Assembly (NCBI GenBank): GCA_030754595.1
Contig: JASLZZ010000008.1
Coordinates: 1 to 14,674, forward strand
Length of the DNA stretch: 14,674 bases
Direction: 5' to 3'
Origin: Nitrospinota bacterium
Lineage (GTDB): Bacteria; UBA8248
Of the stretch, positions 11,176 through 14,674 are shown piece by piece. The translations under genes were made by a program, and so were the position numbers. Positions within the stretch are counted from its first letter, which is position 1. The number at the start of each line of letters is the position of its first letter. The notes beneath the pieces were generated by a model. The model made no database searches. It was not told where the DNA came from and saw only the letters and a list, made by a program, of their open reading frames with translations.

Positions 11176-11646
11176 CTAGGGATGGATCTGGAGCGTGAGG
11201 ATCGTCTCTACTGGGGCGTCGTAGGTAAGTTCGTTGATGTTGAGCGCCGCGCGCGCGTGTTTGCCCCTCTCGTCGCCGAACACCTCGACCAGGAAGTCGC
11301 TCTCCCCGTTGACAACCCAGGGCGCTTCCTTGAAGCCGGGCGCGCTGTTTACGTAACCGACGAGACGCACCATACGGACGATGCGGTCGAGGTCGCCCTC
11401 CAGGCAGTGCTTGGCCATGGCGAGGTGGTTGAGGCCGCAAAGGCGCGCCGACTGGTAGCCCTGCTCGACGGTGACTTCCGCCCCGAGCTTTCCCTTGATG
11501 GGAAGATCGCCGTTCACTTCACCGATGCAGCCCGAGAGATGGAGAATATCGCCCACGACCACGCCCGGGATGTAGTTCGCCACCGCCTCCGGCACGTGGG
11601 GCAGTTCAATTCCGAGTTCCTGCAACCTGTCGTCCACAACGCCCAT
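11176..11646 (-). CDS. Rid (YjgF/YER057c/UK114) family protein, long Rid1-like type (156 aa)
   Basis: ATG at 11646 with GAGGGAG RBS. Motifs RLQELGIELP, ANYIP, GKLGAEVT, VVNGESD and HAR (catalytic Arg)...PVE. Confidence 0.9.
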   Translation of the reverse strand: MGVVDDRLQELGIELPHVPEAVANYIPGVVVGDILHLSGCIGEVNGDLPIKGKLGAEVTVEQGYQSARLCGLNHLAMAKHCLEGDLDRIVRMVRLVGYVNSAPGFKEAPWVVNGESDFLVEVFGDERGKHARAALNINELTYDAPVETILTLQIHP

Positions 11647-12367: not shown

Positions 12368-12459
12368 GCCGCTCTCTCCTCGTGGGGGCCGACATCGGAG
12401 GGACCTTCACCGATCTTGTCTTCCTCGATGAAGAAGGAACCCTCCAAACGCGCAAGGTG
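12364..12459 (+). pseudogene. Hydantoinase A / 5-oxoprolinase alpha-type gene, N-terminal ~32 codons only
   Basis: GTGA overlap with the upstream stop. VSRSLLVGADIGGTFTDLVFLDEEGTLQTRKV carries the DIGGTFTD signature. Family similarity ends at the IS end (12458). Confidence 0.85.
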
Positions 12460-12646
12460 TATGTCATCAGAACATTTTGGACAACAAGCGCTTATAACCA
12501 AGAGACACATGAGTTGTTTCCATGGCGGTTGGCCACCATGGTATTCAGATTCTCTTGTTTTCTCCTTTCGAGTGTTTCGCGTTTGATTTTTTATCGTGCT
12601 GAGAGGGCCGCTCAGTTTCGTAGGTGCGTTTCCCTAGGGATTCGTG
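12458..12646 (-). mobile_element. Decayed IS3-family right end with transposase OrfB C-terminal remnant
   Basis: Terminus TGTATGTCATCAGAACATTTTGGACAA at 12458 is 20/27 identical to the end at 145. The minus strand encodes HESLG (12646-12632) and, in another frame, LSAR*KIKRETLERRKQENL (internal stop 12593-12591). GC content drops here. Confidence 0.75.
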
Positions 12647-13515: not shown

Positions 13516-13896
13516 TCACCCTTCGATGCCGAGCCCCATGAGGGCACGGAGGCCATAGTGCAGGGTAGGCATCCCGCCGGCCACCGAAGCGGTCTCGAGG
13601 GCTTCCTGGATCTCCAGCTCGCTCGCCCCGTTTCGCATCGCGCGGCGCATGTGGATCTGGATCGCGTCCACCGGCGCCATGCGGAAGCAAAGCAGGGCAA
13701 TGTGGATTAGCTCGCGCGTCTTGGCCTGGAGCGCCTCGCCGCTGGCAAAGGTGACCGGCGCCATGTGGGAGTAGGCTTCAAAATAGGCCGGGTCGCGTTC
13801 TGCTCCCCATTCCCATTCGGCCAGCATGAAGCCGCGATCTCCGCGCATCCTATCTATGACGGCATGTGCACGCTCACGCCTCTTCTCTTCGTCCAT
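13516..13896 (-). CDS. Carboxymuconolactone decarboxylase / AhpD-like protein
   Basis: GGAAGGAGG RBS. LQAKTRELIHIAL...HMRRAMRNGASELEIQEAL...GG.P. No CxxC motif. Confidence 0.88.
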   Translation of the reverse strand: MDEEKRRERAHAVIDRMRGDRGFMLAEWEWGAERDPAYFEAYSHMAPVTFASGEALQAKTRELIHIALLCFRMAPVDAIQIHMRRAMRNGASELEIQEALETASVAGGMPTLHYGLRALMGLGIEG

Positions 13897-14140
13897 GCTT
13901 CCCTCCTTCCTCCGGCAGCCTTACAAAAGGCTTCGGGCAGCGATATACCGGATACATCTCGCATGAAGATCATGTCCTCTTTCGGGCCATCTTCTCACAT
14001 TTTCGATGGGTTTCCTGGCGTGGGGACGCACCATCCCACGGGTGGAGGAGGTCGAGAGTGACCGAAGGCCCAATCGCGTCTTGTCCAAATATTCGAACGA
14101 ACCTAAATGTCTTGTTTTTCGCAGATAACTGCCAGGCGAT

Positions 14141-14289
14141 TTCCCTGATAAGTCCCTGTTATTCCCTGTTCCGTATTTAGGGGAATATCTCTGAAACCCT
14201 TTATTGACAGGCGAATCCGGGCGATTTTGGCGAATTTCGGGCCCTGAAAATGGAAAAATTCCCTGTATTTTCCCTGTTAAACAGGGAAA
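14141..14289. repeat. Cluster of phased TCCCTG repeats ending in a perfect inverted repeat
   Basis: TCCCTG at 14142, 14153, 14163, 14260 and 14271. TTTCCCTGTT-A-AACAGGGAAA at 14269-14289. Confidence 0.85.
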
Positions 14290-14354
14290 TTAGCGGAGAA
14301 GGGTTCGCAGGGGACTGCATCCACCACCAAGAAAAACAATCACTTGCCATGATT

Positions 14355-14395
14355 ACCTTACATTTTAAAATTGTCGTGTAAGGTCAATGTAAGGT
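14355..14395. repeat. TGTAAGGT repeat trio (one inverted, two direct copies 11 bp apart)
   Basis: ACCTTACA at 14355-14362; TGTAAGGT at 14377-14384 and 14388-14395. Confidence 0.8.
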
Positions 14396-14498
14396 GAGTG
14401 GTGAAGATTGGGGCCACCAGGAATGGTAGCCTCTTTTATTTGTAGCCGCACCGGACAGATTGATGTGCCCTCCCACACAACACAGCCGCACGTTCTGG

Positions 14499-14535
14499 CC
14501 TGTGGGTGGCGAATTACTAATTCGCCATGCACAGG
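14499..14535. repeat. 37-bp imperfect palindrome containing copy 2 of the 25-bp dispersed repeat
   Basis: CCTGTGGGTGGCGAATTA-C-TAATTCGCCATGCACAGG has 18-bp arms with 16 Watson-Crick pairs. Confidence 0.85.
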
Positions 14536-14674
14536 GTCTTCACCGACGGGGAGGGCAACGTCGGTGAGGGCTCTAACATGAACATGGCCTTTGTCACCCG
14601 GGACGGGGTTTTGAAACACCCCCGTTTCGAGAATATCCTCTCGGGATGCACCGTGGTGCGCCTCCTGGAGTTGG
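14536..14674 (+). pseudogene. 5'-truncated class IV PLP aminotransferase (D-amino-acid transaminase/BCAT-like); runs off window
   Basis: Frame from 14536 reads VFTDGEGNVGEGSNMNMAFVTRDGVLKHPRFENILSGCTVVRLLEL, with the EGxxxN and ILxGxT PLP-binding motifs. An in-frame TAA lies at 14518-14520 and the N-terminal half is absent. Confidence 0.82.

What the first reader, a model, noticed from the sequence alone, without database searches (positions are those of the whole stretch)
14141..14329. Helically phased TCCCTG array ending in a tRNA-3'-like core (GGTTCG...CCACCA)
Seen: two blocks of TCCCTG repeats at 10-11 bp spacing, closed by an inverted copy (degenerate at about 14178-14185, perfect at 14280-14289). 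They are followed by GCGGAGAAGGGTTCGCAGGGGACTGCATCCACCACCA (14293-14329), which has a T-loop-like GGTTCG, a small GCAG/CTGC hairpin and a CCA end, but no cloverleaf. Inference: protein-binding boxes plus a crossover core, i.e. an att-like end of an integrative element. From memory, similar TTCCCTG/CAGGGAA-plus-tRNA-like ends occur next to serine-recombinase islands, but I cannot verify that here. No recombinase gene is in the window.
Basis: partly seen in the sequence, partly recalled or inferred. Interest (0 to 1): 0.7.

Follow-up and report, generated by a model that had tools for sequence, protein, structure and literature searches.

The report
Orphan end of a serine-recombinase island
This 190-base stretch of repeated TCCCTG boxes ending in a tRNA-like tail is most likely the leftover far-end attachment junction of a mobile genomic island that inserts at tRNA gene ends using a large serine recombinase, and no such recombinase remains in this genome.

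Summary
Six of the window's ten TCCCTG sites lie in 14142-14287, in two phased blocks each closed by an inverted copy, followed by GGTTCG...CCACCACCA (14293-14329). It is not a tRNA, and I found no RNA structure.

It belongs to a multi-copy non-coding family with six copies in this genome. Relatives occur in Alphaproteobacteria, Acidobacteriota and Nitrospinota, and similarity always stops at ...CCA.

In homologues, a large serine recombinase (LSR) gene preceded by a DUF2924 gene lies 0.2-0.9 kb beyond the CCA on the opposite strand: 12 of 54 right flanks against 1 of 52 left flanks. The same LSR modules also abut intact tRNA-Ser, -Gln and -Met 3' ends.

In three long assemblies a tRNA|LSR junction is followed 26-52 kb on by array-core|LSR junctions in the same orientation. 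This is tandem island accretion.

The window's genus shows all four combinations of left and right arms. The window is array-core joined to a sequence that elsewhere trails tRNA genes, an attR-type junction.

This genome encodes no LSR or DUF2924, so the junction is orphaned. What binds the boxes is unknown. The same scan met this family earlier on other DNA.

The parts
14139..14186 (+). Block 1 of the array: three direct TCCCTG boxes (14142, 14153, 14163) and a degenerate inverted box GGGGAAT (14180-14186). This is the left limit of the conserved element.
   Evidence: Similarity to the C33 and C48 copies starts at TTTCC(C/T)TGATAA. The same block architecture is present in G001:C142, in an Acidobacteriota copy and in an alphaproteobacterial copy.
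14187..14255 (+). Conserved spacer between the two box blocks (GAAACCC...GATTTTGG...).
   Evidence: Invariant columns in the three-copy alignment. Similar spacer motifs appear in copies from other phyla.
14256..14292 (+). Block 2 of the array: two direct TTCCCTG boxes 11 bases apart (14260, 14271) and a perfect inverted box (14282-14287), forming the palindrome TTTCCCTG-TTAA-ACAGGGAAA.
   Evidence: This is the most conserved part of the family: the palindrome pairs are invariant in 90-92 of 92 aligned copies. Those copies were partly selected with this very pattern.
14293..14329 (+). Core: GAGAAGGGTTCGC-N4-GACTGC-N3-CACCACCA. It mimics a tRNA 3' end and is the inferred recombinase half-site, with the crossover at or just after the terminal CCA.
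   Evidence: Family consensus GAGAC-GGGTTCGC-N4-AGACTGC-N3-CACCGCCA. Similarity between copies ends at CCA. In G044 eight ~95% identical LSR elements start just after ...CCGCCA(+6) of tRNA-Ser (3 copies), tRNA-Gln (1), this type of core (3) or another sequence (1).
14330..14455 (+). tRNA-trailer-like module: TGTAAGGT repeats and a GGGGCCACC/GGTAGCCTC hairpin followed by a T run. It is the inferred host side (B') of the junction.
   Evidence: 76-89% identical sequence directly follows tRNA-Arg(CCG) in G000:C34 and G004:C23, tRNA-Pro(CGG) in G004:C362 and a 5'-truncated tRNA-Ala in G004:C166. It also follows cores in G003:C20 and G004:C249. G004:C362 is a housekeeping context: SurE, PCMT, GroES/EL.
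14499..14535 (.). REP-like palindrome (CCTGTGGGTGGCGAATTA/TAATTCGCCATGCACAGG), multi-copy in the genome. It is not part of the element.
   Evidence: inverted repeat I1; matches in C48, C30, C40, C94 and C53.
14578..14674 (+). 5'-truncated class IV aminotransferase gene fragment. It continues into contig C12 and is ordinary chromosomal flank.
   Evidence: Pfam Aminotran_4 profile positions 139-223 of 223 on the C12 continuation. The C8-to-C12 link is supported by metagenome contigs L213 and L214.
13516..13896 (-). Carboxymuconolactone decarboxylase-family gene, transcribed away from the array. Its start lies 243 bases left of the array. It is the nearest gene on the inferred island side.
   Evidence: Pfam CMD 2.4e-13. 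In 7 of 79 other copies this position holds a ParB-DNA methylase gene in the same orientation.

Best explanation
The feature is the distal (attR-type) attachment junction of a genomic island of the large-serine-recombinase (LSR) + DUF2924 family, which integrates at the 3' ends of tRNA genes.

The island carries, at the end far from its recombinase gene, a conserved non-coding arm. That arm is two blocks of helically phased TTCCCTG boxes followed by a tRNA-3'-like recombinase half-site (GGGTTCGC...GACTGC...CACCACCA). Recombination at or next to the terminal CCA joins this arm to whatever followed the target tRNA. In the window that is the 125-base tRNA-trailer module.

The island body would then lie to the left of 14139, and the ordinary chromosome resumes to the right. 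Because the arm itself looks like a tRNA 3' end, further islands can dock onto it. This gives the tandem arrays and the 'array-core | recombinase' junctions seen in other genomes.

This genome has lost, or never assembled, the recombinase, so the junction is a fixed relic.

Shown: family membership, the geometry relative to LSR/DUF2924 genes, the breakpoint at CCA, the four arm combinations and the tandem order. Inferred: that the island lies to the left in this window, that the crossover is within the CCA region, and that the boxes bind an island-encoded protein. DUF2924, a RAMA-like DNA-binding domain, is the obvious candidate. The boxes could control recombination directionality or the leftward island operon.
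For: (1) Fixed geometry. Of 88 core copies from the genome-collection scan, 12 of 54 with at least 1 kb of right flank have an LSR gene to the right on the opposite strand. Only 1 of 52 with at least 1 kb of left flank has an LSR fragment to the left. In the window's own genus, G001:C142 has an array-core 83% identical to the window's, then 273 bases, then an LSR (Resolvase 1.4e-39, Recombinase 2.5e-14) and DUF2924 (1.7e-47).

(2) The same modules abut tRNAs. tRNA-Ser(CGA), tRNA-Gln(CTG) and tRNA-Ser(GGA) are followed by an LSR after 194-305 bases in the genus. The same holds for tRNA-Met in G041 and for tRNA-Ser(GGA) and tRNA-Ser(TGA) in G042. In G044 eight ~95% identical elements begin after ...CCGCCA(+6) of four tRNAs, three cores and one other sequence.

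(3) Four arm combinations occur in one genus: tRNA|trailer, tRNA|element-left-end+LSR, array-core|element-left-end+LSR, and array-core|trailer (the window). The same element-left-end families occur after tRNAs and after array-cores.

(4) Tandem order and orientation. G041:C5 reads tRNA-Met|LSR, 52 kb, array-core|LSR, 28 kb, array-core|LSR, 60 kb, array-core alone. G042 reads tRNA-Ser(TGA)|LSR, 26 kb, array-core|LSR, and also tRNA-Ser(GGA)|LSR, 31 kb, array-core, all co-oriented. The two G042 tRNAs were predicted from the model before they were looked up.

(5) In the record of temperate phage AcaML1, whose LSR is the closest phage LSR by identity (47.9% over the 73% of the query matched) and is followed by a DUF2924 homologue (39%), a GGGTTCGGTTCCGTGTTCCGCCACCA segment sits at the end far from the LSR, with a CCACCATTTA repeat at both record ends.

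(6) In 7 of 79 copies the gene just left of the array is a ParB-DNA methylase transcribed away from it. The same gene type lies in one co-directional block with terminase, DUF2924 and LSR in G001:C158.

(7) The right flank of the window is ordinary chromosome.
Against: No LSR or DUF2924 homologue exists anywhere in this 96.9%-complete assembly, and no tRNA or LSR lies on the 14.7-kb contig. The island's other end was therefore not found, and island status of the DNA to the left is inferred only.

The genes to the left (SDRs, LIV-type ABC transporter, CMD) are not typical mobile-element genes, and no closely syntenic empty site was found in the genus.

In G044 no array-core was seen within ~4.5 kb beyond DUF2924 of 12 LSR copies, so not every element of the family demonstrably carries the arm.

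The trailer module could itself be the left-end remnant of a decayed neighbouring element rather than native tRNA trailer. Most other 'solo' copies do keep such remnants.

The complete genome G010 has eight copies with no LSR within 8 kb.

The exact pattern was not found in 2.9 million viral contigs, and blastn found nothing in phage or plasmid collections. No free circular element carrying the array was seen.

A synteny test of the G041 island ends in 30 relatives was uninformative.
Confidence: 0.72

Rival explanations
1. Independent landing pad. The array-core is not carried by the islands. It is a separate dispersed chromosomal repeat whose tRNA-like end happens to be used as an alternative attB by LSR elements, and the window holds an unoccupied or rearranged pad.
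For: In G044 the LSR elements start right after the CCA, with the array outside the 95%-identical unit. L042 and L035 share more than 2 kb of left flank plus array, then diverge into different LSR elements. Many copies have no LSR nearby. There was no hit in viral, phage or plasmid collections.
Against: It does not explain why array-cores follow tRNA|LSR junctions at island-size distances in the same orientation in G041 and G042. It does not explain why the window's copy is fused to a tRNA trailer, or why a ParB-methylase gene of the island module recurs just left of the array. It also does not explain how a host repeat would stay conserved across phyla.
Confidence: 0.17
2. Small RNA gene. The boxes are a regulated promoter, and the core is a short tRNA-like RNA processed at CCA and terminated in the trailer module. 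Integrases target it as they target tRNAs.
For: The end at CCA and a tRNA-type trailer with a hairpin plus T run. Two read-length contigs of one metatranscriptome (X18) cover 14051-14337. The 211-nt stretch folds better than shuffles, z = -3.9.
Against: ARAGORN and Rfam found nothing. RNAalifold on 92 copies predicts only the invariant palindrome, with 0 of 7 pairs showing compensatory change and no structure in the core. The TTGACA in the spacer is not conserved in the other copies. RNA-library contigs cannot show transcription or strand. Conservation is of sequence words (boxes, AGACTGC), not of pairs.
Confidence: 0.04
3. Regulator-binding array or operator for the neighbouring gene(s), or a replication-origin or partition iteron field, unrelated to recombination.
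For: Direct repeats at 10-11-base spacing with an inverted copy resemble response-regulator or iteron sites. The array lies 243 bases upstream of the divergently oriented CMD gene. Variant arrays with other box words exist on the same core.
Against: Flanking genes and their orientation differ from copy to copy. The only recurrent neighbours are LSR/DUF2924 on one side and ParB-methylase on the other. No replication genes are nearby. The element always ends in the tRNA-like core at which similarity breaks.
Confidence: 0.05
4. Miniature non-autonomous transposable element (MITE-like), spread by a transposase.
For: Multi-copy and about 72-190 bases with sharp ends. Contigs break at the copies.
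Against: There are no terminal inverted repeats and no target-site duplications at four compared copies. Copies within one genome are only 76-78% identical, with conserved motifs rather than recent bursts. No transposase is consistently associated.
Confidence: 0.02

Closest known systems
Dehalococcoides ssrA-specific genomic islands (serine recombinase DsiB; McMurdie et al. 2011, PMC3146451, passages read)
   Same: A large serine recombase gene on the reverse strand lies next to attL at the 3' end of a tRNA-like gene. Tandem islands are each closed by a short repeat of the target's 3' end, and there is extra conserved sequence just upstream of each repeat. Some islands lack integration modules. 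A ParB-domain gene and a methylation gene sit in the integration module.
   Different: The target there is the single tmRNA gene with insertion in the T-loop and a 20-base repeat. Here several tRNAs (Ser, Gln, Met) are used, with the break at the CCA end. The partner there is a second small serine recombinase (DsiA), here DUF2924. No phased box array is described in the passages I read. The host phyla differ.
Attachment sites of phage large serine integrases (phiC31, Bxb1, TP901-1, A118); description recalled, not from a call
   Same: The enzyme class is the same (Pfam Resolvase + Recombinase). TP901-1 integrase is a distant hit of the family LSR, 29% identity. The gene lies next to the attachment site.
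   Different: Those sites are described as short (about 40-50 bases) and free of accessory sites. Here about 150 bases of phased repeat boxes are conserved next to the half-site. The target is a tRNA end, which the Islander paper (PMC4383910, passage read) said was not known for serine integrases.
Acidithiobacillus caldus temperate phage AcaML1 (JX507079.1)
   Same: It has the closest phage LSR by identity (47.9% over the 73% of the query matched) with a DUF2924 homologue directly upstream. A GGGTTCG...CCGCCACCA tRNA-like segment lies at the end of the record far from the LSR, and a short CCACCATTTA repeat is at both ends.
   Different: It is a 59-kb phage. Its LSR is annotated as split into large and small subunits. 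No TTCCCTG boxes were seen in the last 330 bases, and the family HMM gives no hit there.
Tycheposons and related cryptic elements of Prochlorococcus (bioRxiv 10.1101/2020.12.28.424599, passages read)
   Same: They are marine tRNA-targeting integrative elements that form tandem junctions and carry cargo. A minority (27 of 937 by the paper's figures) use a large serine recombinase.
   Different: They are mostly tyrosine recombinase elements. I made no sequence comparison with them, and no box array is mentioned in the passages I read.
Arm-type and Xis sites of lambda-type tyrosine integrase attP (recalled)
   Same: Helically phased direct repeats flank a crossover core. This is the architecture the boxes resemble.
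   Different: The recombinase class differs. Binding of any protein to the TTCCCTG boxes is untested.

Membership tests
Attachment junction of a tRNA-targeting LSR + DUF2924 island | Homologous copies lie next to an LSR gene in a fixed position and orientation | tested here: met
   12 of 54 right flanks against 1 of 52 left flanks. Same-genus examples are G001:C142, G001:C158, G001:C247 and G004:C27.
Attachment junction of a tRNA-targeting LSR + DUF2924 island | The same recombinase modules are joined to tRNA 3' ends (attL) | tested here: met
   tRNA-Ser, -Gln and -Met followed by an LSR after 194-419 bases.
Attachment junction of a tRNA-targeting LSR + DUF2924 island | All four arm combinations (attB, attP-like, attL, attR) can be found, with the breakpoint at one place | tested here: met
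   within the genus. The breakpoint at ...CCA is seen. Caveat: the attP-like form was seen only inside chromosomes, not as a free circle.
Attachment junction of a tRNA-targeting LSR + DUF2924 island | A cognate recombinase is encoded in the same genome or island | tested here: not met
   tblastn of LSR and DUF2924 against all 138 contigs gave no hit at E <= 1e-5. The junction is therefore filed as an orphan relic, not an active site.
Attachment junction of a tRNA-targeting LSR + DUF2924 island | Recombination at the site is catalysed by the LSR | not testable with these tools
   This needs in vitro or in vivo recombination assays.
tRNA or tmRNA gene | Cloverleaf, or a tRNA-like domain recognised by ARAGORN or Rfam | tested here: not met
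   0 genes and 0 Rfam matches at gathering score. There is no T-stem pairing in the core.
Structured small RNA | Conserved base pairs with compensatory changes | tested here: not met
   Seven predicted pairs, all in the invariant palindrome, with 0 compensatory changes among 92 copies.
Classical minimal serine-integrase att site | A short site without accessory repeats (recalled definition) | tested here: not met
   About 150 bases of conserved phased boxes accompany the half-site in copies from several phyla.
MITE | Terminal inverted repeats and target-site duplication | tested here: not met
   Neither was seen at the ends of four compared copies.
Dehalococcoides ssrA-GI type | Integration into ssrA with a 20-base repeat and the DsiA/DsiB pair | tested here: not met
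   The targets here are tRNAs and the partner gene is DUF2924. The resemblance is in architecture only.

The most novel reading that the evidence does not exclude
The TTCCCTG array plus tRNA-3' mimic would be an island-borne 'portable docking site'. Each LSR island carries at its far end a decoy tRNA end flanked by arm-type sites for its own DUF2924 (RAMA-like) DNA-binding partner. This would make a serine-integrase system with lambda-like accessory sites that control direction. It would let successive islands stack onto one another rather than onto the essential tRNA. The box words would swap (TTCCCTG, CATAGGTTCA, GTCCCACTTG) as binder specificity changes.
Probability: 0.25. Interest if true: 0.7.

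Novelty: new variant of a known kind. Interest (0 to 1): 0.5.

Why it matters
Serine integrases are prized genome-engineering tools precisely because their sites are thought to be short and free of accessory factors. tRNA targeting, in turn, has been credited mainly to tyrosine integrases.

This finding points to a family found in several phyla whose islands dock at tRNA ends. The family carries a conserved, helically phased box array beside the half-site and always travels with a DUF2924 DNA-binding partner. That would give a testable case of accessory-site control in serine recombination. It would also give a mechanism for building tandem island arrays in marine and soil bacteria.

For this window itself the practical value is annotation. 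The feature marks a probable island boundary and explains why assemblies break there.

Tried and rejected
tRNA/tmRNA and Rfam scans found nothing.

I checked sigma-54 and sigma-70 promoter readings of the core and spacer by eye and with the consensus scan. The only promoter-like matches lie outside the array, and the TTGACA at 14205 is not conserved.

RNA structure: alignment folding gave only the invariant palindrome.

A dyad reading (AGACTG ... CAGTCT around CACCGCCA) holds for only 13 of 92 copies. It reflects one family of element left ends and is not a general feature.

I first took the crossover to be after AGACTGC, from L042 against L035. I dropped this because intact tRNAs with different 3' ends precede near-identical elements, and the L042/L035 differences are copy-specific mismatches.

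The 'array is the left end of the LSR element' reading was rejected because the elements begin after the CCA next to tRNAs that have no array.

Transposon-end (Tn7/Mu-like) and MITE readings were rejected: there was no inverted partner and no target duplication.

The exact-pattern scan of viral contigs and blastn against phage and plasmid collections gave no hits.

A synteny test of the G041 island ends in 30 relatives failed because only the tRNA was conserved.

Same-genus searches for an empty site found only paralogues at about 70% identity.

Reads and contigs from four public runs showed contig breaks at the repeat boundaries but no alternative junction. Parts without RNA cover say nothing.

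A search for the two box words in papers returned only unrelated primer hits. One search failed on a mis-framed reference and was repeated without it.

Full report
**Observation**

The window is one whole 14,674-base contig (C8) of a 138-contig assembly that is 96.9% complete.

TCCCTG sits at 14142, 14153 and 14163, and again at 14260 and 14271. A perfect inverted copy lies at 14282-14287 inside the palindrome TTTCCCTGTTAAACAGGGAAA, and a degenerate inverted copy GGGGAAT at 14180-14186. GCGGAGAAGGGTTCGCAGGGGACTGCATCCACCACCA occupies 14293-14329.

The window holds 10 TCCCTG sites in all, no more than shuffles give (mean 11.2), but 6 of them fall within 146 bases.

ARAGORN finds no tRNA or tmRNA. 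Rfam has no match at gathering score. The best sub-threshold match is 19.2 bits against a threshold of 39.

**A conserved, dispersed family**

The 190 bases from 14139 to 14329 recur in the same genome at C33:838-1026 (78% identity) and C48:366-534 (76%). Similarity starts at TTTCC(C/T)TGATAA and stops at ...CCA. A profile built from relatives finds three more short copies (second box block plus core) in C40, C6 and C98.

Among 41 related genomes, 13 have matches. That is 12 of 24 in the same family and 0 of 16 outside it, with up to 19 matches per genome.

By record title these are mostly Alphaproteobacteria, plus Acidobacteriota, Nitrospinota/Nitrospinaceae, Marinimicrobia and a deltaproteobacterial MAG.

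The oriented copies share this consensus: AATTCCCTGTAT-TTTCCCTGTTAAACAGGGAA-N5-8-GAGAC-GGGTTCGC-N4-AGACTGC-N3-CACCGCCA. After that the flanks differ.

Long forms with a first block of three or four boxes also exist in an Acidobacteriota genome and an alphaproteobacterial MAG.

**Not an RNA by the available tests**

RNAalifold on 92 copies predicts only the palindrome hairpin. Its seven pairs are invariant, partly because the copies were selected with that pattern, and none shows a compensatory change. Nothing is predicted in the core.

One metatranscriptome holds two read-length contigs over 14051-14337. That cannot show transcription or strand.

**Association with a recombinase**

Pfam on flanking ORFs, followed by tblastn, showed a large serine recombinase (LSR) to the right of the CCA end, always on the opposite strand with its 3' end towards the core.

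Counted over 88 copies, 12 of 54 with at least 1 kb of right flank have it. Only 1 of 52 left flanks has an LSR fragment.

In the window's genus, G001:C142 carries an array-core 83% identical to the window's. It is followed after 273 bases by an LSR of 575 aa and, directly upstream of the LSR, a DUF2924 protein. G004:C27, G001:C247 and G001:C158 repeat this arrangement.

A passage in PMC11342252 describes DUF2924 as partly matching the RAMA DNA-binding domain.

In G001:C158 the block reads ParB-N6/N4 methylase, a small ORF, terminase large subunit (Terminase_6C, 4e-14), DUF2924, LSR, then the core.

**The same modules sit at tRNA ends, and the break is at CCA**

The LSR is highly multi-copy in two long-read MAGs.

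In G044 eight ~95% identical elements begin a few bases after ...CCGCCA. The sequences they follow are three different intact tRNA-Ser genes, a tRNA-Gln, one TTCCCTG array-core, two cores preceded by other triple repeats (CATAGGTTCA or GTCCCACTTG at 10-base spacing) and one unrelated sequence. Because the tRNA 3' ends differ and are intact, the crossover must lie at or after the CCA region.

In the window's genus, tRNA-Ser(CGA), tRNA-Gln(CTG) and tRNA-Ser(GGA) are followed by an LSR after 305, 194 and 296 bases.

The non-coding element left ends fall into families that occur both after tRNAs and after array-cores. They also persist, without the gene, after 'solo' copies such as C48 and C40 and after tRNA-Ser(CGA) of this genome.

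**Which side is the island**

Three co-oriented series answer this.

- G041:C5 reads tRNA-Met|LSR, then 52 kb to array-core|LSR, 28 kb to array-core|LSR, and 60 kb to a lone array-core.
- In G042, 13 of 19 array-core matches adjoin an LSR or LSR fragment, 12 of them within 400 bases.
- From the model I predicted tRNAs beside two G042 LSRs that lacked a core, and found them. These were tRNA-Ser(GGA) 275 bases and tRNA-Ser(TGA) 273 bases from the LSR stop. Co-oriented array-cores follow 31 kb and 26 kb further on.

This is the architecture printed for Dehalococcoides ssrA islands: a serine recombinase next to attL, and tandem islands each closed by a repeat of the target end with extra conserved sequence upstream (PMC3146451, passages).

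The array-core therefore behaves as the far end of each island.

Two further observations fit this. A ParB-methylase gene of the island block starts 270-930 bases left of the array and points away from it in 7 of 79 copies. Six of the seven have Pfam support for ParB_N and/or N6_N4_Mtase, four of them for both domains.

The AcaML1 phage record, which has the closest phage LSR by identity (47.9% over the 73% of the query matched), has a GGGTTCG...CCGCCACCA segment at the end far from its LSR-DUF2924 pair.

**The window's own junction**

Right after CCACCACCA comes a 125-base module (14330-14455). At 76-89% identity this module directly follows tRNA-Arg(CCG) in C34 and G004:C23, and tRNA-Pro(CGG) in G004:C362, which lies between SurE/PCMT and GroES/EL. 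It also follows a 5'-truncated tRNA-Ala next to a DUF2924-LSR pair in G004:C166. It follows cores in G003:C20 and G004:C249 as well.

The genus therefore shows four combinations: tRNA|trailer, tRNA|element end, array-core|element end and array-core|trailer. The window is the last of these, an attR-type recombinant.

Beyond the module lie a REP-like palindrome, a 5'-truncated class IV aminotransferase and ordinary genes on C12. Two metagenome contigs join C12 to C8.

The stretch occurs near-identically in seawater metagenomes from at least ten studies, so the junction is stable.

**What argues against, and what is open**

- The assembly has no LSR or DUF2924 at all, and neither a tRNA nor a recombinase lies on the contig. 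The island's other end is unknown, and the left-hand DNA (SDRs, an ABC transporter, CMD) does not look mobile.
- No empty site was found.
- In G044 no array-core was seen within about 4.5 kb beyond DUF2924.
- G010 has eight copies without an LSR within 8 kb.
- No free viral, phage or plasmid record carries the array.
- The trailer could be a remnant of a decayed neighbouring element rather than native tRNA trailer.
- A weaker rival remains: that array-cores are independent landing pads.
- What the boxes bind is untested. DUF2924 is a candidate by position only. An operator role for the leftward island operon is equally possible.

**Comparison and novelty**

Serine-recombinase islands at tRNA-like genes are in print. 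Examples are the Dehalococcoides ssrA islands and a minority of tycheposon-like elements (passages). An older database paper stated that serine integrases were not known to target tRNA genes (passage).

My four literature searches found no description of a phased box array beside a serine-integrase site, or of the DUF2924 partnership beyond incidental mentions. Supplements were not examined.

Earlier notes of this scan on other genomes describe the same family. One note records phased AACAGGGAA motifs flanking an LSR crossover, and several record tRNA-end islands with LSR, DUF2924 and terminase. They agree with this report but are not independent proof.

I class the feature as a new variant of a known kind. 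The window's copy itself is an orphaned relic.

Noticed in passing
window 12455-12606: A second dispersed repeat of about 150 bases, containing the palindrome CCATGGCGGTTGGCCACCATGG, starts exactly where a hydantoinase gene is cut off after about 30 codons. Copies at 79-86% identity occur in G000:C60 and in several contigs of G001 and G004.
   Followed up: no
window 12370-12460 and 14578-14674: Two truncated genes bracket the SDR-CMD-array segment: a hydantoinase N-terminal stub (Hydant_A_N, 7e-5) and a class IV aminotransferase lacking its 5' part. This suggests rearrangement around the junction.
   Followed up: partly
window 14499-14535: A REP-like 18+18 palindrome is present in many contigs of the genome (C48, C30, C40, C94, C53) and of its relatives, often close to array-core copies and to recombinase modules.
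   Followed up: partly
window 14531-14674 and 1-145: The last 144 bases overlap the starts of both C12 and C65 (reverse), which is an assembly-graph fork. The first 145 bases recur in C7, C107, C38 and C102. Two metagenome contigs support the C12 continuation.
   Followed up: partly
window 11176-11620 (minus strand): The RidA/YjgF-like gene has a 76% identical paralogue in C34, 5 kb upstream of tRNA-Arg(CCG) and its trailer module. The same RidA-to-tRNA-Arg spacing occurs in G004:C23. The window locus may be a diverged duplicate of that neighbourhood.
   Followed up: no
L188 and L190 (G044), about 100 bases left of the core: These are variant arrays. Three CATAGGTTCA or three GTCCCACTTG repeats at 10-base spacing replace the TTCCCTG boxes on an otherwise similar core. 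A conserved small ORF starts just to the left and reads away from the array.
   Followed up: partly
L198-L211 (G042): A 319-base, 99% identical segment that appears by eye to encode a MazF/PemK-like toxin fragment lies 70 bases left of five array copies and right of one recombinase unit. Five 'solo' arrays there keep up to 165 bases of the recombinase element's left end.
   Followed up: partly
G000:C109, after tRNA-Ser(CGA): In the window's own genome this tRNA is followed by a sequence resembling the non-coding left end of LSR elements, although no LSR gene remains anywhere in the assembly.
   Followed up: partly
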